Source: Escherichia coli
GTDB taxonomy: Bacteria > Pseudomonadota > Gammaproteobacteria > Enterobacterales > Enterobacteriaceae
DNA: 64,000 nucleotides
Strand: one strand, 5' to 3'
Assembly (NCBI RefSeq): GCF_024502345.1
Contig: NZ_JALDNN010000001.1
Made by a program: the position numbers and the translations under genes. This document shows positions 6,149 through 55,177 of the stretch, piece after piece; positions within the stretch are counted from its first letter, which is position 1, and the number at the start of each line of letters is the position of its first letter. The notes under the pieces were generated by a model, which was given only the letters and a program-made list of their open reading frames with translations, was not told where the DNA came from and did not search any database.

Positions 6149-6152
6149 TACT

Positions 6153-6185
6153 CTGAACCCGGTTTCGACCGGGTTTCTCATTTCA
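6153..6185 (+). terminator. rho-independent terminator after uxaB
   Basis: Hairpin gaacccggtttcgaccgggtttc followed by a T-rich run. Confidence 0.6.
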
Positions 6186-6344
6186 CTATATTAGTTACAA
6201 CATCCTATATGCCTTTATCATTAACAGGTGCCACATGCAGCACCTGTTAATGTTGTAAGCTTGTAGATAATTTGTAAGTCGTGTCTTGAGAATGTGATCG
6301 TAATCACGTTTAATAGGGCTACTTTTCCACGCCTGAAGATAACC

Positions 6345-29751: not shown

Positions 29752-30490
29752 CCTGCTGGAACACATTGATCGTATTGAAGATAATATTACTGAATATGAC
29801 CGGATTTTGTCCCGCATGGCAAAAACAGATCACCGCAGCCAGCGATTGATGGAACTGAAAGGGATTGGTCCCACAACGGCCTGTGCGCTGGTCGCCAGTA
29901 TCGGTAATGCACACGATTTTAAAAATGGGCGACAACTGGCAGCCTGGCTGGGACTAACGCCATCGCAGTACAGCAGTGGTGGGAAATCAAAGCTTGGCAG
30001 GATAACTAAAGCTGGCGATTCGTATCTGCGAACGCTACTGGTTCAGAGGGCTCGTTCGGTTCTGATTGGTGCCGAGAAAAGGACTGATTTATTCAGTCGT
30101 TGGGTCTGTTCACTGGTCGATCGCAGAGGATACTGGCGTGCCGTTGTAGCCATCGCCGCCAAAAACGCAAGGCTGTGCTGGCATCATTGCATTACGGTGA
30201 TGATTTCAGGCTGTACTCAGCCAGCTAAAGCACGAAACAAAATAACCATCTGACCTGCAATTCGTTGATGATAAAGGGTTAGACCCCGTGAGGCCTATCT
30301 GGCTATTGTACAGGATATACGTATCCGCTTAACGAACAAGAACCTCACGCGCGTCTTTCATCAGGGTCCGAATCGATGACGATTCATCATGGCCGTTTAT
30401 AGTACCGCAGTCTCTCCCCTTTATTTTTACTGAAGAGCAGACAGAAACCATAAACACCGGCGTTGACACGCCGGGGAAGCCCTTATAGTA
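29752..30490 (+). mobile_element. IS110-family element, 3' fragment (transposase C-terminus plus non-coding end), truncated by IS903 copy 3
   Basis: ORF 29807..30253 matches the C-terminal 140 residues of the transposases at 37205..38269 and 38640..39662; 30254..30490 matches their 3' non-coding ends in reverse complement. Confidence 0.8.
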
Positions 30491-30828: not shown

Positions 30829-31127
30829 TGGACAAATCCGGCCACGCCGGATACGTCAGCAAATATCGCTGAAGAATTAGCTTACACGCTCGTAAGCGGC
30901 TCTTACGACCCGCTAACGCGGAGATACGCCCCAACTGCGGCTTCGCCTTGTTGTGACCACTCCGACCGCGCACAAAAGCCTCTGAGCCGCTTTTAGCGGA
31001 ATATGGCTTTGCAAGGTGAAGGGATGGATAGGCGATCCCTTTCGATCCCTCACTGGTATCGGCGGCTAACCCTCGGTGCTACCTGTCATTTCATCCTGCC
31101 GCCTTACATGCGCTAACGCGCATAAAT

Positions 31128-31165
31128 CCCCGTTCCTCAGTGGAACGAAAACTCACGCTAACAGG
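31128..31165 (+). repeat. relic of a Tn3-subgroup 38-bp terminal inverted repeat
   Basis: tccccgttc-CTCAGTGGAACGAAAACTCACG-ctaacag matches the core of the Tn3 repeat GGGGTCTGACGCTCAGTGGAACGAAAACTCACGTTAAG; inner end faces higBA. Confidence 0.6.
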
Positions 31166-31200
31166 GTAGTGACCGGGTAGCCACGATAACTGCCAACAAA

Positions 31201-31251
31201 ATTAGCTTATAGGTTAATTCTACCTTGTCTGAAATTAGCCTATAGGTTAAT
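31201..31251 (+). promoter_or_regulatory. two copies of an 18-bp near-palindrome upstream of higB (candidate operator)
   Basis: attagcttataggttaat (31201..31218) and attagcctataggttaat (31234..31251), followed by tattaat and a GGAGG ribosome-binding site. Confidence 0.55.
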
Positions 31252-31273
31252 ATTAATAGAAATGGGAGGTCAC

Positions 31274-31603
31274 ATGTTTAGCGTTGTTTATCACCCGGAA
31301 GCCAGGGAAGAAGCCACAGCATTACCCGTAAAAATCAGGGTGAAGTTTGACCGTCTCATCGGCAAACTGGAGTATGACGCCCGATTACTGCGGGAGCCGG
31401 ACACGAAGCCCCTGGGCGATGGACTTTTTGAGATCCGCACGATGGGGACGGACATAGCCAGGGGAATCTGGGTATACCACAAAGGCAATACCATCATCAT
31501 GCTCCGTGTTTTCATCAAGAAGTCACAGAAAACGCCAGCGAAAGAAATCGATCTCGCCAAAAAGCGGTTAGCGGAGGTACTTAATGAAACTGGTAAGCCA
31601 TAA
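31274..31603 (+). CDS. higB: RelE/ParE-superfamily toxin (HigB-like)
   Basis: About 110 aa from MFSVVYHPEAREEA; toxin precedes and overlaps an XRE-HTH partner by 20 bp, the HigBA arrangement. Confidence 0.7.
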   Translation: MFSVVYHPEAREEATALPVKIRVKFDRLIGKLEYDARLLREPDTKPLGDGLFEIRTMGTDIARGIWVYHKGNTIIMLRVFIKKSQKTPAKEIDLAKKRLAEVLNETGKP

Positions 31604-31865
31604 AGAACTGCATAACGAGTGGATGCAGGACGATGAATATCGCGCTGCATGGCAGGAAGAAGAACGTAAGGAAAAGCTCAGGGAGCTGCTTGCTGAATGG
31701 CGCAAGCATGACAACCTGACAAAAGCGCAGGTTGCTGAACGCATGGGGGTTACACCTCCGGTTATTTCTCGCCTGGAAAACAACATCACCAAAGCCAGCA
31801 TCGACACACTGACCCGCTACGCTCACGCCTGCGGCATCAAGAAACCTGTCATTGCCCTGTACTGA
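31584..31865 (+). CDS. higA: XRE-family HTH antitoxin (HigA-like)
   Basis: 93 aa; HTH segment LTKAQVAERMGVTPPVISRLEN. Confidence 0.7.
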   Translation: MKLVSHKELHNEWMQDDEYRAAWQEEERKEKLRELLAEWRKHDNLTKAQVAERMGVTPPVISRLENNITKASIDTLTRYAHACGIKKPVIALY

Positions 31866-31867
31866 AT

Positions 31868-31897
31868 AGCCAGCCCTCCGGGGCTGGCCTTTTTGTT
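31868..31897 (+). terminator. rho-independent terminator after higA
   Basis: agccagccc-tccgg-ggctggcc followed by tttttgttt. Confidence 0.7.
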
Positions 31898-32074
31898 TCG
31901 GTCAGTCCCAAAATTTTGTTAAAGCAAGTTTAAAATGTCACCTGTTTCTCCAAAGTTGAAATGTCACTTCTAAGCCAATCTATTTATACATAATCTTTAC
32001 ATCTTTCCCCGGTGACAAAGTGCTAATTGGTCTGTAATGTTCAATGTGTGGCAGGCAAGCCGCCGGTGACTTAG

Positions 32075-33270
<1,196 letters not shown>

Positions 33271-33439
33271 TTAATATAAAGACACAAGCAGAGACATTTT
33301 TGGCACGATATAAAAACGCTAAGTTAAAAAATCACTATGACGTGTTGGGTATCAAATGTTCACTGGCATAAACCTCTGTTTCTGATGTAAAACAGATTTT
33401 CTGAGGAGGCGTAAAACCTCCTCGTACTGCGAAATTGAT

Positions 33440-33940
33440 TTAGTGATAGCGATCGATCACGCCAACCAGATAGTGGTCGGTTTGCTGCATGTTGATGCCC
33501 GCTTTTTTAGCGCTGCGGACTTCATCCAGAATGATTTGCAACAGCGTCCCGTCCACGATTTCCTCTTTTCTGTATCGCTTCAGGAAGTTAATCGCTGACT
33601 TATCGTTTGCTGCCTGGGCGTCTTCCGTCAAAGAGGTCAGCGCATTAATGCGCTTCTGGTAATCGCTTACCGTCTGCTCAAACAGATCTTCCAGCGTGGA
33701 AAATTCACCGCACCGGGCGTGTTGCTCCTGTAACACCGGCGTGGCGCCGCTCTGTTTGATGTATTCGTACATGCGCATCATTTGCGTCACCGTATTTTGC
33801 GCCTGATGACGCAAAAATAGTGCGGTGCCATTAAGGCTATTCTCGCTGCACCTCTGGCTGAGCTGAAGATACAAATTTGAGGTATAAAACTCCTGATTCA
33901 TTTGCGCATTCAGTTTTTGAACTATTCCGCTAGCGATCAT
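33440..33940 (-). CDS. ferritin-like protein (FtnB/YecI-like paralog)
   Basis: 166 aa; NAQMNQEFYTSNLYLQLS and TQMMRMYEYIK resemble recalled E. coli FtnB at roughly half identity; hairpin terminator downstream. Confidence 0.7.
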   Translation of the reverse strand: MIASGIVQKLNAQMNQEFYTSNLYLQLSQRCSENSLNGTALFLRHQAQNTVTQMMRMYEYIKQSGATPVLQEQHARCGEFSTLEDLFEQTVSDYQKRINALTSLTEDAQAANDKSAINFLKRYRKEEIVDGTLLQIILDEVRSAKKAGINMQQTDHYLVGVIDRYH

Positions 33941-34358
33941 AGGACTTCCTTATTTCTTGTCATCTCAGAAAACGGTCACTCTTCGAAAAAATAACCAGAA
34001 TAAAAGCGATTCTTTCGCTTTTTTTATTGCGCCTGGTTACGCAGTCATATTCATTTTAAGTCGGGATGCTCCTTATTTAAATATCCAACCCTACTATCGC
34101 ATTTCTATCTGGCATTATTCTGTGATGGTGTTTCGATATTCACACTCCCTGTGCCAATCCTTTCTTATCGACAGTAGGAAACTTCCTCCGGCTATTCTGC
34201 TGAACACGATTAGGGGCACTGTTGCAAAGTTAGCGATGAGGCAGCGTTTTGTCTTATTCAAAGGCCTTACATTTCAAAAACTCTGCTTACCAGGCGCATT
34301 TCGGGTGATGCTGCCAACTTACTGATTTAGTGTATGATGGTGTTTTTGAGGTGCTCCA

Positions 34359-34634
34359 GTGGCTTCTGTTTCTATCAGCTGTCCCTCCTGTTCAGCTACT
34401 GACGGGGTGGTGCGTAACGGCAAAAGCACCGCCGGACATCAGCGCTATCTCTGCTCTCACTGCCGTAAAACATGGCAACTGCAGTTCACTTACACCGCTT
34501 CTCAACCCGGTACGCACCAGAAAATCATTGATATGGCCATGAATGGCGTTGGATGCCGGGCAACCGCCCGCATTATGGGCGTTGGCCTCAACACGATTTT
34601 CCGCCATTTAAAAAACTCAGGCCGCAGTCGGTAA
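34359..34634 (+). CDS. insA: IS1 InsA
   Basis: 91 aa [30 protein letters not shown]... Confidence 0.9.
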
Positions 34635-35056
34635 CCTCGCGCATACAGCCGGGCAGTGACGTCATCGTCTGCGCGGAAATGGACGAACAGTGGGGATACG
34701 TCGGGGCTAAATCGCGCCAGCGCTGGCTGTTTTACGCGTATGACAGGCTCCGGAAGACGGTTGTTGCGCACGTATTCGGTGAACGCACTATGGCGACGCT
34801 GGGGCGTCTTATGAGCCTGCTGTCACCCTTTGACGTGGTGATATGGATGACGGATGGCTGGCCGCTGTATGAATCCCGCCTGAAGGGAAAGCTGCACGTA
34901 ATCAGCAAGCGATATACGCAGCGAATTGAGCGGCATAACCTGAATCTGAGGCAGCACCTGGCACGGCTGGGACGGAAGTCGCTGTCGTTCTCAAAATCGG
35001 TGGAGCTGCATGACAAAGTCATCGGGCATTATCTGAACATAAAACACTATCAATAA
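34553..35056 (+). CDS. insB: IS1 InsB reading frame (expressed as InsAB' by frameshifting)
   Basis: 167-aa [24 protein letters not shown]... overlapping insA. Confidence 0.9.
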
Positions 35057-35066
35057 GTTGGAGTCA

Positions 35067-35747
35067 TTACCGCATTTCGCCCAGGGGATCACCATAATAA
35101 AATGCTGAGGCCTGGCCTTTGCGTAGTGCACACATCACCTCAATACCTTTGATGGTAGCGTAAGCCGTCTTCATGGATTTAAATCCCAGCGTGGCGCCGA
35201 TTATCCGTTTCAGTTTGCCATAATCGCATTCAATCACGTTGTTCCGGTACTTAATCTGTCGGTGTTCAACGTCAGACGGGCACCGGCCTTCGCGTTTGAG
35301 CAGAGCAAGCGCGCGACCATAGGCGGGCGCTTTATCCGTGTTGATGAATCGCGGGATCTGCCACTTCTTCACGTTGTTGAGGATTTTACCCAGAAACCGG
35401 TATGCAGCTTTGCTGTTACGACGGGAGGAGAGATAAAAATCGACAGTGCGGCCCCGGCTGTCGACGGCCCGGTACAGATACGCCCAGCGGCCATTGACCT
35501 TCACGTAGGTTTCATCCATGTGCCACGGGCAAAGATCGGAAGGGTTACGCCAGTACCAGCGCAGCCGTTTTTCCATTTCAGGCGCATAACGCTGAACCCA
35601 GCGGTAAATCGTGGAGTGATCGACATTCACTCCGCGTTCAGCCAGCATCTCCTGCAGCTCACGGTAACTGATGCCGTATTTGCAGTACCAGCGTACGGCC
35701 CACAGAATGATGTCACGCTGAAAATGCCGGCCTTTGAATGGGTTCAT
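35067..35747 (-). CDS. tnpA: IS26 transposase, C-terminally truncated by the IS1 insertion
   Basis: MNPFKGRHFQRDIILWAVRWY...GDPLGEMR then stop; the recalled native protein continues LVSRVFEM. Confidence 0.85.
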   Translation of the reverse strand: MNPFKGRHFQRDIILWAVRWYCKYGISYRELQEMLAERGVNVDHSTIYRWVQRYAPEMEKRLRWYWRNPSDLCPWHMDETYVKVNGRWAYLYRAVDSRGRTVDFYLSSRRNSKAAYRFLGKILNNVKKWQIPRFINTDKAPAYGRALALLKREGRCPSDVEHRQIKYRNNVIECDYGKLKRIIGATLGFKSMKTAYATIKGIEVMCALRKGQASAFYYGDPLGEMR

Positions 35748-44770: not shown

Positions 44771-47755
44771 ATGCCACGGCGACAGATACTGAGCAGCGAA
44801 GAGCAGGAACGCTTACTGGTTATACCAGATGATGAAATTATTCTGACCCGAATGTGTTTTCTGAACGAACCGGATATTGCGCTCATTAATAAGCACCGAA
44901 GGCCAGCGAATCGCCTGGGCTTTGCTGTATTACTCTGTTATCTGCGTGGACCTGGATTTATTCCGGACAAAAGCAGTGCTCCTCACAATGGCGTTGTATC
45001 CAGGGTTGCTTCCCGACTGAAACTTCAGCCTGATTTATGGCCGGAATATGCATCCAGAGAGCAAACCCGCTGGGAACATCTGACCGAACTTTATCGCTAC
45101 CTGGAACTATCCCCGTTCAGCCGGTCAATGCAAAAAGACTGTATCCGTCATCTGCACCCCTATGCCATGCGAACTGACAAAGGATTTATGCTGGCGGAAG
45201 AAATGCTCAGCTGGCTACATAACAATAATGTTATTTTCCCTTCTGTTGAAGTGATCGAACGGACGCTTGCCGAAGTCGTCACGCTCGCTAACAGATCGGT
45301 ATTTTCGACACTTACCGCGCAACTGGAAAAGCAGCATAAATCAGCACTCGACAGCCTGCTCATATCAGAGGGTGAACAACCTTCCCGTCTGGCATGGCTG
45401 CTACAGCCTCCGGGTAAAATAAACGGTAAAAATGTGCTGCAACATATCGACCGGCTTAATTCCATCGCTGCGCTGGGGTTGCCTGATGGTATTGCACTTT
45501 CCGTTCACCAGAACAGGTTGCTTAAACTGGCGCGTGAGGGCCGGAAAATGAGCAGCAGGGACCTGGCAAAATTCACCGATGTCAGACGTTACGCTACGCT
45601 GGTTTGTATAATAACAGAGGCCAGGGCCACCCTGACTGACGAAGTGATTGATCTGCACGAGCGTATCCTGGGTAGTCTGTTCAGCAGGGCAAAACGCACG
45701 CAGGCCGAACGGCTCCAGCAAACGGGAAAGCTTATTCAGAGCAAGCTGAAGCAGTACGTTACCGTCGGGCAGGCGTTACTTAACGCCAGAGAATCCGGGG
45801 AAGATCCCTGGACTGCAATAGAAGATGTCCTTCCCTGGCAGGAATTCATCAACAGCGTGGAAGAAACGCGGTTTCTTTCCCGTAAGGGCAATTTCGACGC
45901 GCTTCATCTGATCACCGAAAAATACAGTACGTTGCGTAAATATGCCCCGCGTATGCTGTCAGCATTGCAGTTCATGGCGACACCTGCGGCGCAGGCGCTC
46001 AGCGATGCGCTGGACACCATAACGGAAATGTACCGTAAACAACTTCGTAAAGTGCCGCCATCAGCGCCAACAGGGTTTATCCCTGAAAGCTGGCGAAAAC
46101 TGGTGCTCACGCCTTCAGGCATCGACCGCAAGTACTACGAGTTTTGCGTACTGAATGAACTCAAGGGTGCATTACGTTCCGGTGATATCTGGGTAAAAGG
46201 ATCGCGCCGCTACAAAAATTTTGATGATTATCTCATCCCGACTGCTGAGTTTGAGAAATCCCGACATAATGACCAGTTACAGTTGGCCGTTCAGACCGAT
46301 AGCCAGGCATACCTTCAGGCCCGTATGACTCTTCTTGCATCTCGGCTGGAAGAAGTTAACGCGATGGCGCTTGCCGGTGATTTGCCCGATGTAGATATCT
46401 CAGATAAAGGCGTAAAAATCACTCCACTGGAGAACAGCGTTCCTTCAGGTGTTTCGCCCTTTGCAGATTTGGTCTATGGCATGCTTCCCCATCCGAAAAT
46501 TACGGAGATACTGGAAGAAGTTGATAGCTGGACGGGATTTACGCGTCACTTCGCGCACCTCAAAAATAATAACGTCAGACCAAAAGACGGAAGACTGTTG
46601 CTGACCACCATTCTGGCTGACGGCATCAACCTTGGGCTGACAAAAATGGCGGAATCCTGCCCTGGGGCCACAAGATCGTCACTCGAAGGTATTCAGACAT
46701 GGTACATCAGGGATGAAACTTATTCAGCGGCACTGGCCGAGCTGGTCAACGCACAGAAAGAGCGGCCTCTGGCCGCATTCTGGGGCGACGGGACAACATC
46801 GTCGTCAGACGGGCAGAACTTTCGGGTAGGCAGTCACGGACGTTATGCCGGTCAGGTCAATCTTAAATATGGTCAGGAGCCGGGCGTGCAGATTTATACG
46901 CATATCTCAGACCAATACAGCCCGTTCTACGCCAAAGTGATCAGCCGGGTGCGCGACTCAACCCACGTGCTTGATGGCCTGCTGTACCATGAAAGCGATC
47001 TGGAAATTACCGAGCATTACACCGATACCGCAGGCTTCACTGAACATGTTTTCGCCCTGATGCACCTGCTGGGATTCGCTTTTGCGCCAAGGATCCGTGA
47101 TCTTCATGACAAGCGGCTGTTTATTCATGGAAAGGCCGAGCGCTATCCGGGGCTTCAGTCTGTCATATCAACAACCTGCCTGAATATCAAAGACATTGAG
47201 TCGCACTGGGATGAGGTATTGCGCCTGGCAACCTCGATTAAGCAGGGGACAGTCACCGCATCACTGATGATGAAAAAGTTAGCCAGTTACCCAAAACAGA
47301 ATGGACTTGCCAAAGCGCTGAGAGAGATTGGCCGCATCGAACGGACACTATTTATGCTGGACTGGTTCCGTGATCCCGGTCTGCGCCGACGCGTGCAGGC
47401 GGGGCTGAATAAGGGTGAGGCCCGTAATGCCCTTGCGCGAGCGGTCTTTTTGCACCGTCTGGGTGAAATAAGGGATCGTGGGCTGGAGAATCAGAGTTAT
47501 CGCGCCAGCGGGCTGACATTACTGACAGCAGCGATCACGTTGTGGAACACGGTATATATAGAAAGAGCTATTGAGTCACTAAAACGAAAGGGTATCCCGA
47601 TAAATGAGCAACTGGTCTCTCATCTTTCTCCCCTGGGCTGGGAACATATCAATCTGAGTGGAGATTACGTCTGGCGTAATAATCTTAAGCTGGGATCCGG
47701 AAAATACCGCTCATTACGTACAGTCGATACCGCTTTGTACAAAAAACAGTCTTAG
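44771..47755 (+). CDS. tnpA: Tn3-family DDE transposase
   Basis: 994-aa ORF; stop codon lies inside the terminal repeat. Confidence 0.85.
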   Translation: MPRRQILSSEEQERLLVIPDDEIILTRMCFLNEPDIALINKHRRPANRLGFAVLLCYLRGPGFIPDKSSAPHNGVVSRVASRLKLQPDLWPEYASREQTRWEHLTELYRYLELSPFSRSMQKDCIRHLHPYAMRTDKGFMLAEEMLSWLHNNNVIFPSVEVIERTLAEVVTLANRSVFSTLTAQLEKQHKSALDSLLISEGEQPSRLAWLLQPPGKINGKNVLQHIDRLNSIAALGLPDGIALSVHQNRLLKLAREGRKMSSRDLAKFTDVRRYATLVCIITEARATLTDEVIDLHERILGSLFSRAKRTQAERLQQTGKLIQSKLKQYVTVGQALLNARESGEDPWTAIEDVLPWQEFINSVEETRFLSRKGNFDALHLITEKYSTLRKYAPRMLSALQFMATPAAQALSDALDTITEMYRKQLRKVPPSAPTGFIPESWRKLVLTPSGIDRKYYEFCVLNELKGALRSGDIWVKGSRRYKNFDDYLIPTAEFEKSRHNDQLQLAVQTDSQAYLQARMTLLASRLEEVNAMALAGDLPDVDISDKGVKITPLENSVPSGVSPFADLVYGMLPHPKITEILEEVDSWTGFTRHFAHLKNNNVRPKDGRLLLTTILADGINLGLTKMAESCPGATRSSLEGIQTWYIRDETYSAALAELVNAQKERPLAAFWGDGTTSSSDGQNFRVGSHGRYAGQVNLKYGQEPGVQIYTHISDQYSPFYAKVISRVRDSTHVLDGLLYHESDLEITEHYTDTAGFTEHVFALMHLLGFAFAPRIRDLHDKRLFIHGKAERYPGLQSVISTTCLNIKDIESHWDEVLRLATSIKQGTVTASLMMKKLASYPKQNGLAKALREIGRIERTLFMLDWFRDPGLRRRVQAGLNKGEARNALARAVFLHRLGEIRDRGLENQSYRASGLTLLTAAITLWNTVYIERAIESLKRKGIPINEQLVSHLSPLGWEHINLSGDYVWRNNLKLGSGKYRSLRTVDTALYKKQS

Positions 47756-47788
47756 CGTGGGATAATTTCCGTTTTCCAAGCGGACCCC
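47751..47788 (-). repeat. 38-bp terminal inverted repeat of the Tn3-family element
   Basis: Reverse complement reads GGGGTCCGCTTGGAAAACGGAAATTATCCCACGCTAAG. Confidence 0.85.
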
Positions 47789-47858
47789 AGGGAGAGCTGA
47801 GAACATTAAATTTTAATATAAACAAAGAATTACCTTCTTAGCGTACGTTACCGTCCCA

Positions 47859-48092
47859 TTGGCCCTCAAACCCCTCAACACCCTGATGGAACGTTTTTTT
47901 AGAAGTCTGAAAACAGAATGGGTGCCGGATAATGGATACGCTAATTTTAGCGAAGCCAGCACAGCGATAACGAATTACATAACGGGATATTACAGCCAGC
48001 TCAGACCTCATCAATATAACGGTAGTTTGACGCGGAATGAATCAGAACGATTGCTCTGGAAAAACTCTAAAGCCGTGGCCAACTATTGTTGA
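47859..48092 (+). pseudogene. IS3-family integrase (orfB) C-terminal remnant
   Basis: 77-aa ORF with the YYSQLRPHQYNG motif typical of IS3-family integrase C-termini. Confidence 0.5.
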
Positions 48093-48103
48093 CCACTACA
48101 CAT

Positions 48104-48571
48104 CTATTTTATAGGTAACCCCTTAAAAGATTTAATCTCCTTGATACTGAAACTGGTATTCATCTCCTTTATATTCCCAATTTTTCGTATCCTTATCATT
48201 GATACGTTGTGAAAATCATCCATATCTTTTACTACAAGATGCAGAAGATAGTCGTATCTTCCGGAGATATTATGACAGGCAATTACATTATCAATCTTCA
48301 TTATTTCTGCCTCAAAATATTGCATGCACTCCTCGGAATGAAGATCTAATGTAATATTCATGAATGCATAAAAATTGTATCCAAGGCTTTTCGGTTCGAT
48401 AAAAGCCCGATAGTTTTTTATCACTTCCTGCTCTAAAAACTTTAGCCGTTTCCAGCAGGCTGGAGGGGAAAGAAAAACACGCTTGGCAATCTCAGCGTTG
48501 TTCAGCCTGCCATCTTCCTGCAAGAAATTTAAAATCTGCATATCAACTTTGTCAAGCTTTACCATGTTCAA
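48104..48571 (-). CDS. Lrp/AsnC-family transcriptional regulator
   Basis: 155 aa; N-terminal HTH (LDKVDMQILNFLQEDGRLNNAEIAKRV) and C-terminal ligand-binding fold. Confidence 0.75.
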   Translation of the reverse strand: MNMVKLDKVDMQILNFLQEDGRLNNAEIAKRVFLSPPACWKRLKFLEQEVIKNYRAFIEPKSLGYNFYAFMNITLDLHSEECMQYFEAEIMKIDNVIACHNISGRYDYLLHLVVKDMDDFHNVSMIRIRKIGNIKEMNTSFSIKEIKSFKGLPIK

Positions 48572-48773
48572 CCTCCTGTGATAGCAATCATATTCGTAAT
48601 TTTATGAAATAAAATTAACCAAATCAATAAAAACAAGAAATAAGATAAGCCATAAATTGTAAAAATAGTTAATTTTAAAAAGATAATTAATATACTTACC
48701 GGGTAGAATCATTTATGAAGTGCAAACCTCTGTAAATAATTACCATAAAATATCCTCACACAGGAATATACCT

Positions 48774-50081
48774 ATGACCATATTGGAACAGAACATCGAC
48801 AGGGCCTCATTATCGCCAGAAGAGTGGAAAAAACTAACCCGATTTGACAGTACAGATGTAGGATGGATTATCATAAGCATAGGTATGGCTATCGGCGCCG
48901 GGATTGTGTTTTTACCGGTCCAGGTGGGGCTTATTGGATTGTGGGTATTCCTGCTTTCTTCCATCATTGGTTATCCGGCCATGTACCTGTTTCAAAGATT
49001 GTTTATCAATACGCTGGCAGATTCACGAGAGTGTAAAGACTATCCCGGTGTCATCGAGGGCTATCTGGGAAAAAACTGGGGAATGCTCCTCGGTCTGCTC
49101 TACTTTCTCATGCTGGTCATCTGGATATTCGCCTACCCTACGGCGTTGACTAACGATACAGCGTCGTATTTACACACGTTTGGCTTAACTGAGGGTCTTT
49201 TATCAGAGAACCCTTTCTATGGCCTAATTCTTATTACATTTCTTGTGCTTATTGCTTCACGTAGTGAAGAGCTCTTGTTCAGGATTTCCTCTTTCATGGT
49301 GTTATCAAAACTGGTGGTAGTGCTTATCCTGGGGTTGATGATGGTCAGCATGTGGGACCTCTCCAAAAACATCGGTTCATTCCCTTCTTTTAGTATTTTA
49401 ATCAAAAACGCCATTATCACCTTGCCATTTACGTTGACATCAATCCTGTTTATTCAGTCTTTGAGTCCGATGGTAATTTCATATCGTGCAAAAAACAAAT
49501 CTATAGAAGTGGCAAGATATAAAGCGCTAAGAGCAATGAATATCGCTTTTGGTACACTATTCATCGTTGTTTTCTTTTATGCATTATCATTCACTTTCGC
49601 CCTCGGTCACGATGAAGCTGTCAAAGCCTACGAGCAAAATATTTCAGCACTGGCTATTGCCGCACAGTTTATTGAAGGAGATGCAGCAAAGTATGTGACG
49701 CCAGTTGGTGTTGCATTGAATATCTTTGCCCTGATGACTGCCTTCTTCGGCGTTTACCTCGGGTTCAAAGAGGCTGTACAGGGACTGGCGATGAACGCAT
49801 TGACCCGTTTTATACCTTCAGAGAAAATCAATAAAAAAACGCTTAATGTTGGTATTGTCATTTTCACTATTGCCATCGCCTGGGGGGCAATCGTTCTGAA
49901 CCTGCCGGTTCTGCTATTCACCTCAATCTGCAGCCCCATTTTCGGCATTGTTGGTTGCTTAATCCCTGCTTATCTGGTTTACAAGGTACCCTCCCTTCAC
50001 CGATATAAAGGGTTTTCTCTGTATCTGATCATCTTTACTGGCATCCTGCTCTGTATTTCTCCGTTCCTGAAATTCATTTAA
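48774..50081 (+). CDS. HAAAP-family amino-acid transporter (serine/threonine/aromatic type)
   Basis: ORF 48720..50081; motifs AIGAGIVFLP and AYLVYKVPSLHRYKG resemble recalled TdcC/SdaC; polytopic. Confidence 0.7.
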   Translation: MTILEQNIDRASLSPEEWKKLTRFDSTDVGWIIISIGMAIGAGIVFLPVQVGLIGLWVFLLSSIIGYPAMYLFQRLFINTLADSRECKDYPGVIEGYLGKNWGMLLGLLYFLMLVIWIFAYPTALTNDTASYLHTFGLTEGLLSENPFYGLILITFLVLIASRSEELLFRISSFMVLSKLVVVLILGLMMVSMWDLSKNIGSFPSFSILIKNAIITLPFTLTSILFIQSLSPMVISYRAKNKSIEVARYKALRAMNIAFGTLFIVVFFYALSFTFALGHDEAVKAYEQNISALAIAAQFIEGDAAKYVTPVGVALNIFALMTAFFGVYLGFKEAVQGLAMNALTRFIPSEKINKKTLNVGIVIFTIAIAWGAIVLNLPVLLFTSICSPIFGIVGCLIPAYLVYKVPSLHRYKGFSLYLIIFTGILLCISPFLKFI

Positions 50082-50112
50082 ACAAACATATATGTCCAAA
50101 GAAGGTTAAATT

Positions 50113-51318
50113 ATGAAGTACAATTTTGATGAAATTATCAACAGAAAAAATACTGATGCCCTGAACTACGATGGGTGGAGACAATATATATTCAAGGCCG
50201 ACAAGAGTGCCCGCTTTGACTTTAAGGACGATGAATTTGTCAGAATGTGGGTCGCTGATATGGATTTTGCGACACCTCCGGAAATCCTTGCAGCGATTCA
50301 GGAGAGGCTTGATAAAAAAATACTCGGTTACACAAAAGTTTACGATGATGAGTACTATCATATTTTCCACAACTGGTGCCAGAGACGCTATGACTGGAAT
50401 ATAGATACCACAGAGATCGTGCTTTCACCGGGCATTATTCCTGCACTTAACCGTCTGGTACCGTTACTGACACAACAGGATGAAAGTGTGTTGATCAATA
50501 CACCATCCTATACGCCGTTTAAGCAGGCTGGAGACTATAGCTATCGTCGAGTGATCTGTTCTGATTTGCTGAAACAGGACAATGAATACATTATTGACTT
50601 CAACGATATGGAGAAAAAACTAACCGATCCTTCTCTAAATATTAAGCTGTTCATTTTATCCAATCCGCAAAATCCAACCGGGATGGTCTGGTCAGAACAA
50701 GAATTAATGAGAATGGGGCAGTTGTGCCTTAAAAACAATGTCTGGATCATTTCAGACGAAATACATTGTGATTTACTGAGAAATGGGATCAATCATATCC
50801 CGATGGCAAAACTGTTCCCAGACACTGATAAGATCATCACCTGTATGGCACCAAGCAAAACCTTTAATCTTGCCGGAAATCTGATGTCCCATATTTTTAT
50901 TAAAAATGAAAAGGTCAGAAAAGAATGGTTACGTCTTTATGATGAGTTTCTTTCACCACTGAGTCTGGCTGCGACCAAAGCGGCCTGGTCCCGGTGCGAC
51001 GAGTGGCTGGAACAATTAAAACACTATCTTGATGATAACTTCAGACTGGTAGAAAAATTTACCCAGGAACACTTTCCTGACGCAAACTTTAAAATTCCCG
51101 ATGCAACTTATCTGGCATGGATAAATATTGAGAAATACCTGCCACCGCAGGTAGACAGACAACAGCTTTCTCTCTATTTCGCCAACCAGACGGGAATACT
51201 GCTTGAAGGCGGGAACATGTTTGTAAGCAATGGAGAGGGTTACATACGGATTAATCTTGCCTGTCCACGCGCCGTGATACAAGAAGGATTAGAGAGAATA
51301 AGAAAAGCACTGAAATAG
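50113..51318 (+). CDS. PLP-dependent C-S lyase, MalY/PatB type
   Basis: 401 aa, aminotransferase class I/II fold with MalY/PatB-like N-terminus MKYNFDEIINRKNTDALNYDGW. Confidence 0.7.
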   Translation: MKYNFDEIINRKNTDALNYDGWRQYIFKADKSARFDFKDDEFVRMWVADMDFATPPEILAAIQERLDKKILGYTKVYDDEYYHIFHNWCQRRYDWNIDTTEIVLSPGIIPALNRLVPLLTQQDESVLINTPSYTPFKQAGDYSYRRVICSDLLKQDNEYIIDFNDMEKKLTDPSLNIKLFILSNPQNPTGMVWSEQELMRMGQLCLKNNVWIISDEIHCDLLRNGINHIPMAKLFPDTDKIITCMAPSKTFNLAGNLMSHIFIKNEKVRKEWLRLYDEFLSPLSLAATKAAWSRCDEWLEQLKHYLDDNFRLVEKFTQEHFPDANFKIPDATYLAWINIEKYLPPQVDRQQLSLYFANQTGILLEGGNMFVSNGEGYIRINLACPRAVIQEGLERIRKALK

Positions 51319-51507
51319 TAAATCCCTGAAAATTTCAGCCTGATCGTCCAAAAGGTCGCAGTTTAAACAATGCGACCTTTATACCGGATAATTTAGCATG
51401 TTGAACCGATTTTCGGAGACTCTCTATCGCGCTGGACGGCTCTGCATGTACATTGTCGCCTGAAAAATAATATCAGGGATATAAATAGCCTGTTAATACC
51501 TCGTTTC

Positions 51508-52565
51508 GGCTTTGTTGAATAAATCAGATTTCGGGTAAGTCTCCCCCGTAGCGGGTTGTGTTTTCAGGCAATACGCACGCTTTCAGGCATACCTGCTTTC
51601 GTCATTTTGTTCAGCGCTCGTACCAGGGCCATAGCCTCTGCAACCTGACCATCGTAGTCACGCAGTGTCAGTGAACCCCCGAACAGCTGTTTTACCCGGT
51701 ACATCGCCGTTTCCGCTATCGAGCGACGGTTGTAATCTGTTGTCCATTTCCACCGCGCATTACTCCCGGTCATTCGCTGATTAGCCACTGCACGGTTACG
51801 GTCTGCATATTCACCGGGCCAGTAACCCGCACCTTTTCGGGGAGGGATAAGCGCGCTGATTTTCTTACGCCGCAGTTCATCGTGACATAGCCGGGTATCG
51901 TAAGCGCCATCGGCGGCGGCTGACCTGATTTTCCGGTGGGTTTGCCGGATTAACCCGGGGAAGGCCTCTGAGTCCGTAACGTTGTTCAGCGACAGGTCAG
52001 CGCAGATGATTTCATGTGTTTTACTGTCAACGGCGAGATGCAGCTTACGCCAGATACGGCGGCGTTCCTGGCCATGCTTTTTGACTTTCCACTCGCCTTC
52101 ACCGAAGACCTTCAGCCCGGTGGAATCAATTACCAGGTGTGCGATTTCACCCCGGGTGGGCGTTTTGAAACTGACATTAACCGACTTTGCCCGCCTGCTG
52201 ACACAGCTGTAATCCGGGCAGCGTAGCGGAACGTTCATCAGAGAAAAAATGGAATCAATAAAGCCCTGCGCAGCGCGCAGGGTCAGCCTGAATACGCGTT
52301 TAATGACCAAGCACAGTCGTGATGGCAAGGTCAGAATAGCGCTGAGGTCTGCCTCGTGAAGAAGGTGTTGCTGACTCATACCAGGCCTGAATAGCTTCAT
52401 CATCCAGCCAGAAAGTTATGGAGCCACGGTTGATGAGGGCTTTATTGTAGGTGGGCCAGTTGGTGATTTTGAACTTTTGCTTTGCCACGGAACGGTCTGC
52501 GTTGTCGGGAAGATACGTGATCTGATCCTTCAACTCAGCAAAAGTTCGATTTATTCAACAAAGCC
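51508..52565 (-). mobile_element. IS903-type insertion sequence, copy 4, 1058 bp, same frameshift as copy 3, intact 9-bp target duplication
   Basis: Flanks cctcgtttc (51499..51507) and cctcgtttc (52566..52574); same extra base as copy 3. Confidence 0.9.
51564..52533 (-). pseudogene. IS903-type transposase, frameshifted
   Basis: ORFs 51564..52403 and 52300..52533. Confidence 0.85.
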
Positions 52566-52598
52566 CCTCGTTTCCTCTCTTCATGACACCCTGACTCA

Positions 52599-53135
52599 TT
52601 AATATAGTGTCACAGCATTGTGAGGGCACTGGACAACGCATTCGCCACAACCATCACAGCGTTCGTTGTCAGCCGACATCCGTCCAGACTCATTAATAAA
52701 GCAAGCCTGTCGTGGGCATACATCCACGCACTGTTTACACTGTCTGACAGGATTCACACAGGCAGAGTTACAGAACACCGGGCGCAGTCCGGTATCAAAA
52801 CGAGACTGCACGCGTAGCGCGTCACTCGAACATGCTGCGATACACAAACCACAGCCATCACAACTGGCATATTCAATCATCAGTTGCGGGTAACCGTCTT
52901 CATGTCTGGACAGGACTCCCATTGGGCAGACATCAATGCACTGACTACATTGGGTACACTGGGTTATGAACTCCGCATCAGGAACCGCCCCTGGCGGCAA
53001 CGAATGTCCCAGCCGGGTAGACAGTACTTCTGGCGTTGTGTGCTTTGCCGCGCTGACAAACGCACGAAACAGTCCGCGCCGACTGACGTGCCGGTGAGCC
53101 ATCAATTCATGATAATATTTCTCTGATTTGTTCAT
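52599..53135 (-). CDS. ferredoxin-type protein with four 4Fe-4S-binding cysteine motifs
   Basis: 178 aa with four cysteine clusters (CTQCSQCIDVCP, CDGCGLCIAACS, CKQCVDVCP, CDGCGECVVQCP). Confidence 0.7.
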   Translation of the reverse strand: MNKSEKYYHELMAHRHVSRRGLFRAFVSAAKHTTPEVLSTRLGHSLPPGAVPDAEFITQCTQCSQCIDVCPMGVLSRHEDGYPQLMIEYASCDGCGLCIAACSSDALRVQSRFDTGLRPVFCNSACVNPVRQCKQCVDVCPRQACFINESGRMSADNERCDGCGECVVQCPHNAVTLY

Positions 53136-53728
53136 CCGAAATACAGCCGCTTCACCGCAGGTTGCAACGCCCGTTGCTGTTGCAAATCCTGCAAATAGCG
53201 CGTGGTCACGGCGGCAAGGCGAGCATAGAACGGACTCACCCTGTTGCCCTGCAGACGTTCAAGATAGCGATATCCCCACGGTAACAAATAAACCTCTAAC
53301 AGCTGATTAACTGCCGCATCTTTTCCAGCATCAAGTATCGCACTGCAGGCTAACAACATCAGCCCAAACTGATCTTCCGGCTCATTTTGACCCGAATTAA
53401 AAGTCATTCCCTGAGACTGCAGAAACGCCCGGTACTTAGCGGTGGTATTGCCCATTAGCAGGTTATCGCGTTCCAGCCAGACAGATCCCCAGGGTGGCAC
53501 GGGCATCTCGCCCTGCCCTTCAAACAGCACGGAGAATTGCCATGCCAGTTCGTCATTATCGGGAAACGGCCAGTCTGCGCACAGTGAAGCTGTTCCCGCA
53601 GGGTCGCTCCATGGGTACAGCTCCGACAGAGTGGGCAGACAATCGAAAAGTGCTTTCACCTCTGGTCGTTCCGGAGAGTAGTAAAACAGTGCACCGAGGA
53701 TCCTCGGTAATACAATATTGGGGGACAT
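53132..53728 (-). CDS. TorD/DmsD-family redox-enzyme maturation chaperone
   Basis: 198 aa; LGALFYY and PPWGSVW...NEPEDQFG motifs resemble recalled DmsD at about 40 percent. Confidence 0.75.
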   Translation of the reverse strand: MSPNIVLPRILGALFYYSPERPEVKALFDCLPTLSELYPWSDPAGTASLCADWPFPDNDELAWQFSVLFEGQGEMPVPPWGSVWLERDNLLMGNTTAKYRAFLQSQGMTFNSGQNEPEDQFGLMLLACSAILDAGKDAAVNQLLEVYLLPWGYRYLERLQGNRVSPFYARLAAVTTRYLQDLQQQRALQPAVKRLYFG

Positions 53729-53771
53729 CCTGAGTTCTCCTGAAAACAGAGCGGCTACAGCCGCTCACAGA

Positions 53772-54545
53772 TTACATCGGCAACGTCCACAGGTTGTAGA
53801 ATGCGATCCTACCCACCAGTTCCGCAGCGATAACCACCAGTGACGTGGTCGCCAGAACGGCCACATTAGTTTTGAGTCGTACCCAGGCCACCACACCGAC
53901 AATGCCGACAGCTAGCAGTACAACCTGAGCAGTGAACCAACTGGATTGAGCCGCAGTTAGCACCCCATCAGCATCCATAAGCGTCAAAATATAGCCTGGA
54001 CGCAGGCAGAAGCTGACCAGAATCGCCAGCACACTCACCAGCAACCCCAGGCGCAGACCAAACAGTCCGGCCAGAATGCCACCTCCGATCATCGGAGTCA
54101 GTACCATCATCACCGTAGTGTAAGATGTCCGCCAGGTGACCACCGTCGGCAACTGATAGATTTGCGGGATGGCGAAGATAAAAACCACCCCCACCGCGGC
54201 CGCCAGCCACACCAGTCCTTTACATAACGAAGCCGCTCCACGATTGAGAAGCAACCCCAGTGCGCCCAGCCCGCCAAGTGTCGCAAACACTGCCGATAAC
54301 ACGATTTCGTTGCTCATCGGTGAATGGCCCACTCGCAGCAACATATTCAATGCTCGTAAAGGCTGGCCTACATGGAAAATGCCCAGCAACACCCCAACGC
54401 CAAACAGACACATCGCGGAGAAAAGACCAACGGCCATACGCTGCCTGTCAATCTGCCCCAGGGTGCCGCCAATCAGCAACAGAATAAACGCGCCAACTGC
54501 GCTCTGAGTAAAGACGGTAAAAAAGACCAGAGGTAACTCATGCAT
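53772..54545 (-). CDS. DmsC-type membrane anchor subunit
   Basis: About 257 aa polytopic membrane protein directly downstream of the Fe-S subunit. Confidence 0.7.
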   Translation of the reverse strand: MHELPLVFFTVFTQSAVGAFILLLIGGTLGQIDRQRMAVGLFSAMCLFGVGVLLGIFHVGQPLRALNMLLRVGHSPMSNEIVLSAVFATLGGLGALGLLLNRGAASLCKGLVWLAAAVGVVFIFAIPQIYQLPTVVTWRTSYTTVMMVLTPMIGGGILAGLFGLRLGLLVSVLAILVSFCLRPGYILTLMDADGVLTAAQSSWFTAQVVLLAVGIVGVVAWVRLKTNVAVLATTSLVVIAAELVGRIAFYNLWTLPM

Positions 54546-55164
54546 TGCGCACCTCACTCATGTTCATGATGGCCCCTTCCTTGTCTCCCGTCGGGCGGGC
54601 CTTCGGATGGGGTTTAATAATAAGGTTAGGATGAGTAAACGACGCGGCGGGCAGCGGCGCGATTTCATTCTCAGTGCCATACTTCTTCCGTAACTCATCG
54701 ATCGGCCCGAAATCCAGCGCGCGCTGTGGACAAGAGTCCACGCAAATTGGTCGCAGATTTTTCTCCAGTCGATCAAGGCAACCATCGCACTTACGCATCA
54801 CTTTGGCCTGAGCATCAAATTGTGGCGCGCCATACGGGCAGCGCATTTCGCAATAACGGCATCCGACACAAATATTGTCATCGACCAGCACCAGTCCGTC
54901 CTCTTCACGTTTGTGCATCGCTCCGGTAGGACATCCGGAGACACAAACCGGTTCATCACAGTGGTTACAGGCAATAGAGAGGTAGTAGGTAAAAGTGTCG
55001 TTGTGCCAGCTTTCTCCTTCTTTCGCCCAACTTCCGCCACCATATTCATATACCCGACGGAATTTCGGGCCCACGTCCAGATCTTTATTATCCTTGCAAC
55101 TGACCTGGCAGGTTTTGCAGCCTGAGCAACGCGAGGAGTCAACATAAAAGCCATACTGTTTCAT
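54538..55164 (-). CDS. DmsB-type iron-sulfur subunit
   Basis: 208 aa; MKQYGFYVDSSRCSGCKTC and three further cysteine clusters; resembles recalled DmsB/YnfG but not identical. Confidence 0.8.
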   Translation of the reverse strand: MKQYGFYVDSSRCSGCKTCQVSCKDNKDLDVGPKFRRVYEYGGGSWAKEGESWHNDTFTYYLSIACNHCDEPVCVSGCPTGAMHKREEDGLVLVDDNICVGCRYCEMRCPYGAPQFDAQAKVMRKCDGCLDRLEKNLRPICVDSCPQRALDFGPIDELRKKYGTENEIAPLPAASFTHPNLIIKPHPKARPTGDKEGAIMNMSEVRNA

Positions 55165-55177
55165 TGCGGATCACTCC

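What the first reader, a model, noticed from the sequence alone, without database searches (positions are those of the whole stretch)
33440..33940. Divergent ferritin-like gene stranded between IS5 and IS26
The encoded protein is clearly FtnB/YecI-like but only about half identical to the chromosomal FtnB I recall, so it is an extra, horizontally acquired paralog. It has its own terminator and is bracketed by IS5 on one side and IS26 on the other.
Basis: partly seen in the sequence, partly recalled or inferred. Interest (0 to 1): 0.3.

Follow-up and report, generated by a model that had tools for sequence, protein, structure and literature searches.

The report
Mobile ftnB copy from Atlantibacter lineage
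This is a real, intact second ferritin-like (FtnB-type) gene that insertion sequences lifted from the chromosome of an Atlantibacter-like bacterium and spread almost unchanged across hundreds of enterobacterial plasmids; it is already catalogued and is an ordinary piece of mobile cargo.

Summary
ORF 33440-33940 (-) encodes a 166-aa ferritin-fold protein. It passes NCBI's curated model for FtnB-type "non-heme ferritin-like protein" and fails the FtnA model. It is 50-51% identical to E. coli core FtnB, which is present in 5418 of 5426 complete genomes. The mobile gene occurs in only 33 of those genomes, and at >=99% identity in 298 plasmids from nine genera.

Its closest non-mobile relatives (72-84%) are the positional ftnB orthologs of Atlantibacter, in an otsBA-araHGF-ftnB-dcu arrangement. 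Homology runs through both intergenic flanks. The 944-bp segment 33271-34214 is therefore a captured piece of an Atlantibacter-lineage chromosome, cut by ISKpn26 on one side and by IS26 on the other. Here that IS26 is itself split by IS1.

Three of the four di-iron ferroxidase ligands are replaced (E50T, H53Q, E94Y), as in FtnB. dN/dS against the orthologs is 0.08-0.13. The "terminator" is a conserved hairpin without a U-tract.

The protein is RefSeq WP_001752509.1, and the IS26/ISKpn26-flanked ferritin module was described in a 2019 plasmid paper. Novelty and interest are low; the donor-lineage assignment is the only increment.

The parts
33440..33940 (-). ftnB-type ferritin-like gene (166 aa; = RefSeq WP_001752509.1)
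   Evidence: ORF. PF00210. NF011597 at 209.9 bits, above the cutoff of 154. Annotated as WP_001752509.1 in the matching RefSeq records, which are 99.9% identical in DNA. The exact protein sequence is in the public collection on >=1000 contigs.
33941..34214 (-). Retained native upstream region (274 bp) with Shine-Dalgarno AAGGAAG 5 nt before the ATG
   Evidence: Homologous to the araF-ftnB intergenic region of Atlantibacter-lineage contigs from about -200 onward. No Fur box (best 11/19, equal to shuffles), no CpxR box and no FNR box.
33271..33439 (-). Retained native downstream region (169 bp), ending at the ISKpn26 junction
   Evidence: Aligns to the ftnB-dcu intergenic region of L006, L004 and L017 up to the ATATTAA where ISKpn26 begins.
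33403..33423 (-). Conserved 8-bp GC-rich hairpin downstream of the stop codon (possible terminator or mRNA stabiliser)
   Evidence: The 63-nt stretch containing it folds at -17 kcal/mol, z -3.4. All 8 pairs are kept in 6 of 6 orthologs, one of them with a two-sided change. It was not called by the terminator scan because no U-run follows it.
32075..33270 (+). ISKpn26 (IS5 family), 1196 bp, intact 326-aa transposase
   Evidence: ORF 32143..33123. Inverted repeats GGAAGGTGCG / CGCACCTTCC; flanks TTAG versus TTAA, so no target-site duplication. Annotated ISKpn26 in matching records.
34215..35810 (-). IS26 (820 bp) interrupted by IS1
   Evidence: Terminal repeats GGCACTGTTGCAA / TTGCAACAGTGCC. Total length 1596 = 820 + 768 + 8. 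The tnp26 ORF 35067..35765 lacks its last 8 codons.
34304..35071 (+). IS1 (768 bp) inserted into IS26, with 8-bp duplication GCATTTCG
   Evidence: InsA/InsB ORFs at 34359..34634 and 34553..35056. Ends and duplication read directly from the sequence.
31262..31865 (+). HigB/RelE-like toxin plus HTH antitoxin pair that co-travels with the module on plasmids
   Evidence: ORFs. The same pair lies immediately left of ISKpn26-ftnB-IS26 in L001, L002 and L012. Described together with the ferritin gene in PMC6657655.

Best explanation
The gene is a mobilised ftnB xenolog. A 944-bp stretch (33271-34214) of the chromosomal araF-ftnB-dcu region of an unsampled Atlantibacter-lineage enterobacterium was trapped between ISKpn26 and IS26. 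The stretch holds the gene, about 270 bp upstream and about 170 bp downstream. It was carried onto large conjugative plasmids and has since spread nearly unchanged among Citrobacter, Klebsiella, Enterobacter, Raoultella and E. coli. In this window it sits in an IS-rich mosaic island inserted in the E. coli chromosome, between the lsr/hipA region and the yddA/pqqL region. The product is an FtnB-class ferritin-like protein. By homology it should form a 24-subunit four-helix-bundle shell, but it lacks three of the four canonical di-iron ferroxidase ligands. By inference from Salmonella FtnB, it most likely holds a small, readily released iron pool that supplies Fe2+ for repair of oxidatively damaged Fe-S clusters, and is not the cell's bulk iron store. 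Shown here: family identity, origin lineage, IS boundaries, distribution, the residue pattern, and purifying selection relative to the orthologs. Inferred: oligomeric state, iron handling, the Fe-S repair role, expression in E. coli, and any fitness benefit. It may be no more than a passenger of IS26/ISKpn26 traffic.
For: Family: NF011597 at 209.9 bits against a cutoff of 154, while the FtnA model NF007638 scores 97.8 against a cutoff of 178. PF00210 matches, and the protein aligns without gaps to 1EUM.

Residues, in FtnA numbering (ligand list from PMC7762939): E17, Y24 and E126 are kept. E49N, E50T, H53Q, E94Y, E129V and E130D are changed. The Q53/Y94/D130 pattern matches E. coli and Salmonella FtnB.

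Origin: all four hits among 100,044 species-representative genomes are Atlantibacter-lineage, at 72-79%. A metagenomic relative is 84% identical. These orthologs sit in otsBA-araHGF-ftnB-dcu-phoH-putP-putA, the same araHGF-ftnB position as in E. coli K-12. The mobile fragment aligns to them from about 200 bp upstream to about 133 bp downstream of the gene at 77% nucleotide identity. Sequence beyond the two IS elements has no match to them.

Accessory status: 33/5426 E. coli genomes carry it (24 places on plasmids, 11 on chromosomes), against 5418/5426 for core ftnB. It occurs at >=99% identity in 295 of 298 matching plasmids from 9 genera.

Integrity: dN/dS is 0.08-0.13 against the orthologs. 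The SD sequence is conserved and so is the 3' hairpin.

Function by homology: Salmonella ftnB mutants are attenuated, and FtnB is reported as the Fe2+ donor for Fe-S cluster repair (PMC6686035; PMC8264917).
Against: No functional data exist for this protein. Only 274 bp of native upstream DNA is retained. No Fur, FNR or CpxR site is detectable in it, whereas K-12 ftnB has a perfect FNR box at -270, so regulation, and even expression, in E. coli is unproven. The mobile allele has four private substitutions at columns invariant in nine other FtnB-type proteins, including the non-conservative W30R. Some plasmid copies are truncated by IS junctions (query coverage starting at 168 or ending at 558; 153-157-aa variants). 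Both points fit weak selection on the cargo. The exact donor species (>=99% identity) was not found; the best chromosomal or metagenomic relative is only 84% identical, with dS about 1.
Confidence: 0.85

Rival explanations
1. The gene is intact, but in its present hosts it is a functionally irrelevant hitch-hiker. On this view it persists only because it lies between two very active insertion sequences next to a toxin-antitoxin pair, and it gives no selected benefit.
For: It is always found as a sub-kilobase fragment bounded by IS elements, not in an operon. Known ftnB regulatory sites are not detectable upstream. Truncated copies exist. There are four private substitutions at otherwise invariant positions, including W30R. 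Carrier E. coli nearly all keep their own ftnB.
Against: The ORF is full-length in 278 of 298 plasmid matches. dN/dS against the orthologs is low, although that mostly reflects history before capture. The SD sequence and the 3' hairpin are intact. The >=99% identity across hosts means there has been too little time to tell neutrality from selection.
Confidence: 0.35
2. It is a canonical FtnA-like iron-storage ferritin with an active ferroxidase centre.
For: It has the ferritin fold and a gap-free alignment to E. coli FtnA. E17, Y24 and E126 are retained.
Against: It is only 32% identical to FtnA. The FtnA model scores 97.8 bits, below its cutoff of 178. The di-iron ligands E50, H53 and E94 are replaced by T, Q and Y, and the site C ligands E49 and E129 by N and V (ligand list in PMC7762939).
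Confidence: 0.04
3. It is an old E. coli paralog, arising from a duplication of ftnB that diverged in place, and not a horizontal acquisition.
For: It is in the same family as core ftnB and, in this window, it is located on the chromosome.
Against: It is present in only 33/5426 genomes, more often on plasmids. It is >=99% identical in nine genera. Its closest relatives and flanking-sequence homology are in Atlantibacter, not Escherichia. It is bounded by IS elements inside a mosaic island.
Confidence: 0.01
4. [quoted passage not shown]
For: Wording of the annotation in PMC6657655. A true Dps gene lies a few kb away on some of the same plasmids.
Against: No Dps family appears among the Pfam or NCBIfam hits. 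The best hits are FtnB and then FtnA, and the length and helix pattern match 24-mer ferritins.
Confidence: 0.01

Closest known systems
FtnB (YecI) of E. coli / Salmonella enterica, NCBIfam NF011597 'non-heme ferritin-like protein'
   Same: Same curated family, scoring above cutoff. Same length (166 versus 167 aa). Same loss of the ferroxidase ligands H53 (Q), E94 (Y) and E130 (D). Its Atlantibacter orthologs occupy the same araHGF-adjacent chromosomal position.
   Different: Only 50-54% identical. Positions 49, 50 and 127 are N, T, E instead of S/G, N, Q. It is located on mobile DNA between ISKpn26 and IS26 instead of next to araF. It lacks the far-upstream FNR box seen at K-12 ftnB. It carries W30R.
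Core ftnB of Atlantibacter spp. (Atlantibacter sp. RC6, A. subterranea, A. hermannii) and an unnamed metagenomic relative (P0004)
   Same: 72-84% protein identity. Identical pattern at all ten ferroxidase and site C positions in P0004 and P0006. Homologous 5' and 3' intergenic flanks, including the 3' hairpin.
   Different: Those copies are chromosomal, between araF and a dcuA/B-type transporter gene. dS to the mobile copy is about 1, so none of them is the actual donor.
The higBA-ISKpn26-ferritin-IS26 module of pSIM-1-BJ01 (K. pneumoniae, MH681289) and similar IncHI/IncF plasmids
   Same: It is the same DNA: MH681289 is among the >=99.8% identical hits. [quoted passage not shown]
   Different: Here the module is in an E. 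coli chromosomal island and its IS26 is disrupted by IS1. The paper calls the product a DNA-protection protein and does not address its origin.
FtnA, the main E. coli iron-storage ferritin (PDB 1EUM)
   Same: Same fold, with a gap-free alignment over residues 4-155.
   Different: 32% identity. The ferroxidase and site C ligands are mostly absent. It scores below the FtnA family cutoff.

Membership tests
FtnB-type non-heme ferritin-like protein (NCBIfam NF011597) | Full-length match to the curated equivalog model above its cutoff | tested here: met
   209.9 bits against a cutoff of 154; residues 1-163 match profile positions 1-163 of 167.
FtnB-type non-heme ferritin-like protein (NCBIfam NF011597) | Ferritin-like four-helix-bundle domain | tested here: met
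   PF00210, E 4.6e-22, residues 8-141. Gap-free alignment to 1EUM. No structure was predicted here.
FtnB-type non-heme ferritin-like protein (NCBIfam NF011597) | Degenerate ferroxidase centre shared with E. coli and Salmonella FtnB (H53Q, E94Y, E130D; E50 not Glu) | tested here: met
   T50, Q53, Y94 and D130 in the query, against N50, Q53, Y94 and D130 in E. coli and Salmonella FtnB.
FtnB-type non-heme ferritin-like protein (NCBIfam NF011597) | Orthologous chromosomal position next to araFGH | tested here: met
   Met for the closest chromosomal relatives and for K-12. The window copy has lost this context but keeps homologous intergenic flanks.
FtnB-type non-heme ferritin-like protein (NCBIfam NF011597) | Role as an iron source for Fe-S cluster repair; 24-mer assembly | not testable with these tools
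   Known only for Salmonella FtnB from the literature. It needs biochemistry and genetics.
FtnA-type canonical bacterial ferritin (NCBIfam NF007638) | Score above the curated cutoff | tested here: not met
   97.8 bits against a cutoff of 178.
FtnA-type canonical bacterial ferritin (NCBIfam NF007638) | Ferroxidase ligands E17, E50, H53, E94 and E130, and site C ligands E49, E126 and E129 (PMC7762939) | tested here: not met
   Only E17 and E126 (plus Y24) are retained.
IS26 pseudo-compound transposon / translocatable unit | Cargo bounded by two IS26 copies in direct orientation, or one IS26 plus cargo forming a unit, with 8-bp target duplications | tested here: not met
   In this window only one IS26 adjoins the gene, and it is disrupted. 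The other boundary is ISKpn26, with no target-site duplication (TTAG / TTAA). Two IS26 copies flank the gene in pZ1323HEC0108-3, but in opposite orientation.

The most novel reading that the evidence does not exclude
The mobile Atlantibacter-type FtnB is selected cargo and not a passenger. On this reading it is a plasmid-borne, ferroxidase-independent iron buffer, altered by substitutions such as W30R. It would improve Fe-S cluster repair and survival under oxidative, copper/silver or disinfectant stress, which would explain its persistence on large metal-resistance and multidrug plasmids of hospital and wastewater Enterobacteriaceae.
Probability: 0.12. Interest if true: 0.4.

Novelty: already known. 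Interest (0 to 1): 0.12.

Why it matters
It matters little beyond correct annotation. [quoted passage not shown] The one increment here is the assignment of its origin to the core ftnB locus of the Atlantibacter lineage. That adds another example of IS26/ISKpn26 capturing a housekeeping gene from an environmental enterobacterium. It also gives a convenient marker for tracing this mosaic segment among plasmids and chromosomal islands. If the gene were shown to improve stress tolerance, it would join the non-antibiotic cargo that helps large resistance plasmids persist.

Tried and rejected
1. Regulatory sites in the retained 274-bp upstream region. The best Fur box match is 11/19, no better than 1000 shuffles. 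There is no CpxR box (GTAAA-N5-GTAAA with up to 2 mismatches) and no FNR box (up to 2 mismatches). No regulatory claim is made.

2. Hybrid promoter from the outward-facing -35 (TTGCAA) in the IS26 terminal repeat. Inspection found no acceptable -10 at 16-18 bp spacing. The consensus scan gave only two weak promoter-like sites, equal to the shuffle expectation.

3. Canonical intrinsic terminator. The scan did not call the 3' hairpin. It did call a hairpin upstream of the gene (34002-34022) that is not conserved in the orthologs.

4. Database hits at 90-95% identity (P0003, P0005, P0007, P0010) as possible closer donors. They are the same mobile gene with frameshifts at homopolymer runs, in IS-flanked metagenome contigs.

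5. Extension of the native fragment past either IS element. BLAST of window 31000-32074 and 35811-37200 against the Atlantibacter-lineage loci found nothing.

6. Structure prediction and fold search were not run. The gap-free match to 1EUM and the curated family scores already settle the fold, and the tools would not return coordinates for inspecting W30R.

Full report
**What is there.** The minus strand carries an ATG-initiated ORF at exactly 33440..33940 encoding 166 aa. It matches the Pfam Ferritin domain (PF00210, E 4.6e-22, residues 8-141). It passes NCBI's curated equivalog model for FtnB-type proteins, NF011597 'non-heme ferritin-like protein', at 209.9 bits against a cutoff of 154. It falls below the cutoff of the FtnA model NF007638, at 97.8 against 178. 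Against solved structures, the best match is E. coli FtnA (1EUM, E 2e-23), aligned without gaps over residues 4-155.

**How it compares with core ftnB.** The protein is 50-51% identical to E. coli FtnB, 54% to Salmonella FtnB and 32% to FtnA. The K-12 ftnB sequence, taken from its araHGF-ftnB-yecJ locus, is found in 5418 of 5426 complete E. coli genomes. The window's gene is found in only 33 genomes, with 24 places on plasmids and 11 on chromosomes, all but one at >=99% identity. At most 8 genomes lack core ftnB, so at least 25 carriers have both copies. 'Extra, horizontally acquired copy' is correct.

**Distribution.** In the plasmid collection the 801-bp region matches 298 records, 295 of them at >=99% identity. 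By genus these are Citrobacter 125, Klebsiella 104, Enterobacter 25, Escherichia 20, Raoultella 18, and a few Salmonella, Providencia, Leclercia and Kluyvera. Most are conjugative. The matching RefSeq records annotate the gene as WP_001752509.1. The exact protein sequence is in the public collection on at least 1000 contigs. [quoted passage not shown] The module is therefore already on record.

**Boundaries.**
- Left: a complete 1196-bp IS5-family element, annotated ISKpn26 in matching records, occupies 32075-33270. Its terminal repeats are GGAAGGTGCG and CGCACCTTCC.
- Its 4-bp flanks are TTAG and TTAA, so there is no target-site duplication. The two sides of the IS therefore come from different contexts.
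- Right: IS26 begins at 34215 (GGCACTGTTGCAA) and ends at 35810.
- In this window IS26 is split by a 768-bp IS1 at 34304-35071 with an 8-bp duplication GCATTTCG. The lengths add up: 1596 = 820 + 768 + 8.
- The IS1 insertion removes the last eight codons of tnp26.
- In other records the IS26 is intact.

**Origin.**
- Apart from frameshifted copies of the same gene (P0003, P0005, P0007, P0010), the nearest relatives are an 84% identical protein from metagenome contigs (P0004) and a series at 67-76% identity.
- A scan of one genome per species (100,044 species) returned four loci, all in the Atlantibacter lineage. They are Atlantibacter sp. RC6 (79%), A. subterranea (73%), A. hermannii (72%), and a 75% hit. 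The 75% hit's record is titled Citrobacter freundii M-21, but NCBI names the protein (P0009) as Atlantibacter sp..
- In those genomes the gene lies in otsBA-araHGF-ftnB-dcu-phoH-putP-putA. This is the same araHGF-adjacent slot as E. coli ftnB, so they are the positional ftnB orthologs.
- Homology is not limited to the coding sequence. The mobile fragment aligns to these loci from about 200 bp upstream of the ATG to about 133 bp past the stop codon, at 77% nucleotide identity, and stops where ISKpn26 begins.
- DNA outside the two IS elements has no match to these loci.
- The 944 bp at 33271-34214 is therefore a captured piece of an Atlantibacter-lineage chromosome. With dS about 1 to the closest relative, the actual donor species is not in the databases searched.

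**Ferroxidase centre.** The ligands in E. coli FtnA numbering are:
- site A: E17, H53, and the bridging E50;
- site B: E50, E94, E130;
- site C: E130, E49, E126, E129;
- plus Y24 (PMC7762939).

The mobile protein keeps E17, Y24 and E126. It has N49, T50, Q53, Y94, E127, V129 and D130. E. coli and Salmonella FtnB share Q53, Y94 and D130 and also lack Glu at positions 49 and 50. The Atlantibacter clade shares the mobile protein's pattern at nearly all ten positions; only position 129 varies (V or E). This is an FtnB-type degenerate centre, not an active FtnA-type one.

**Is the gene in working order?**
- Nei-Gojobori dN/dS is 0.08 against the 84% relative and 0.13 against Atlantibacter P0009. 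The lineage has evolved under purifying selection, although most of that history predates capture.
- The Shine-Dalgarno sequence (AAGGAAG) is conserved with the orthologs. By analogy with E. coli ftnB, where CsrA binds a GGA overlapping the SD (PMC6686035), it could be a CsrA site. This is an inference only.
- An 8-bp GC-rich hairpin sits 17 nt after the stop codon (33403-33423). The 63-nt stretch containing it folds at -17 kcal/mol (z -3.4).
- The hairpin is kept in all six orthologs, with one two-sided compensatory change. No U-run follows it in this copy, and the terminator scan did not call it. 'Has its own terminator' is only partly supported.
- No Fur, CpxR or FNR site is detectable in the retained 274 bp upstream. 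K-12 ftnB has a perfect FNR box at -270. Salmonella ftnB is reported to be Fnr-activated and only indirectly Fur-dependent, with no Fur box (PMC3212961).
- The mobile allele has four private substitutions at columns invariant in nine other FtnB-type sequences: W30R, F58Y, E107D and H157Y. Most of the others have 0-2.
- A minority of plasmid copies are truncated at IS junctions.
- Taken together, the gene looks intact, but its expression and benefit in E. coli are unproven.

**Setting in the window.**
- Bases 1 to about 16.8 kb are core E. coli chromosome (lsr operon, uxaB). Bases from about 58.4 kb onward are core again (yddA, yddB, pqqL, gadB).
- Between them lies an IS-rich mosaic. It begins with an ECSE_1600 autotransporter gene split and partly inverted by IS903-like copies. 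hipA, an integrase gene and IS110-family elements follow.
- Next come the higBA-like pair, ISKpn26-ftnB-IS26/IS1, IS3-family fragments and an MBL-fold hydrolase gene.
- The mosaic ends with a truncated FtrA-like regulator gene, IS2, a Tn3-family transposase and resolvase, a Ser/Thr transporter with a PatB C-S lyase, and a truncated DMSO-reductase-type operon.
- E. coli BKQ37E carries the same gene in the same chromosomal neighbourhood (hipBA-integrases-ftnB-IS26...ydeP) without ISKpn26.

**Most likely mechanism.** By homology the product assembles into a ferritin-type shell. It lacks a competent di-iron ferroxidase site, so like FtnB it probably binds and releases iron rather than mineralising it in bulk. 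In Salmonella, FtnB is reported to supply Fe2+ for repair of oxidatively damaged Fe-S clusters, and ftnB mutants are attenuated (PMC6686035; PMC8264917). Whether the mobile copy does this in E. coli, adds anything to the resident ftnB, or is simply carried by IS traffic cannot be decided from sequence. I put the pure hitch-hiker reading at about 0.35.

**Verdict.** The item is already known: a catalogued protein and a published IS-flanked module. The only increment is the assignment of its origin to the Atlantibacter ftnB locus. Interest is low.

Noticed in passing
window 34215-35810 (IS26) with 34304-35071 (IS1): IS1 has transposed into IS26, with an 8-bp duplication GCATTTCG. This removes the last eight codons of tnp26. 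The remaining Tnp26 ORF also appears to differ from the usual IS26 transposase sequence, as recalled from memory, at two residues (CDYGKLKR, MCALRKG). This IS26 copy is probably inactive.
   Followed up: partly
window 16868-24694: An ECSE_1600-family autotransporter gene is broken into an inverted N-terminal piece (17862-19793, minus strand) and a C-terminal piece (21215-24694, plus strand). Two identical IS903-like (IS5-family) copies lie at 16868-17836 and 20303-21271. The arrangement looks like an IS-mediated inversion.
   Followed up: partly
window 31262-31865: A HigB/RelE-like toxin (113 aa) and an HTH antitoxin (93 aa) with overlapping ORFs lie immediately left of ISKpn26. The same pair accompanies the ftnB module on many plasmids and may be what keeps the segment on them.
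   Followed up: partly
window 33853-33855 (codon 30 of the gene): The mobile allele has Arg (AGG) where nine other FtnB-type proteins and FtnA all have Trp (TGG). With F58Y, E107D and H157Y, that makes four private changes at otherwise invariant columns. The change is fixed in all mobile copies inspected.
   Followed up: partly
L014 (E. coli K-12) 270 bp upstream of ftnB; window 33941-34214: K-12 ftnB has a perfect FNR box (TTGATTAATATCAA) at -270. The mobile copy retains only 274 bp of upstream DNA and has no FNR-like, Fur-like or CpxR-like site, so it may have lost the oxygen-responsive control of the native gene.
   Followed up: partly
window 34002-34022: An AT-rich bidirectional hairpin (AAAAGCG...CGCTTTT flanked by A and T runs) lies about 60-80 nt upstream of the ftnB start codon. 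The scan called it terminator-like on both strands. It is not conserved in the Atlantibacter orthologs, and its role is unknown.
   Followed up: no
window 37205-39662 and 29807-30253: Two different IS110-family transposase genes (354 aa and 340 aa; the second is IS4321/IS5075-like) and a fragment of a third copy lie close together. These elements typically target the inverted repeats of Tn21-family transposons, which suggests remnants of such transposons nearby.
   Followed up: no
window 44036-51318: A Tn3-family resolvase and transposase (44036-47755) are followed by a Ser/Thr-type transporter gene and a PatB-family C-S lyase gene (48720-51318), which may be transposon cargo. One E. coli chromosome (NZ_LR536431.1) matches 44000-57362 at 99.9%.
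   Followed up: no
window 52599-57250: A DMSO/selenate-reductase-type operon is present (NapF-like ferredoxin, DmsD chaperone, A subunit). Its A-subunit ORF matches only from profile position about 109 onward and abuts an IS903-like copy at 57394. It is apparently a core operon truncated by IS insertion.
   Followed up: no
L013 (E. coli IncY plasmid pZ1323HEC0108-3), locus 1-2884: On this plasmid the ftnB module lies about 11-14 kb from a family 1 encapsulin shell gene, a plasmid-borne rpoH and a DUF305 gene. This is another cluster of iron- and stress-related cargo and may be worth a separate look.
   Followed up: no
L011 (E. coli BKQ37E chromosome), locus 5549-7048: A 'site-specific integrase' ORF reads directly into the ftnB downstream region (junction at window coordinate about 33343), with no ISKpn26 in between. 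This suggests a deletion derivative of the island seen in the window.
   Followed up: no
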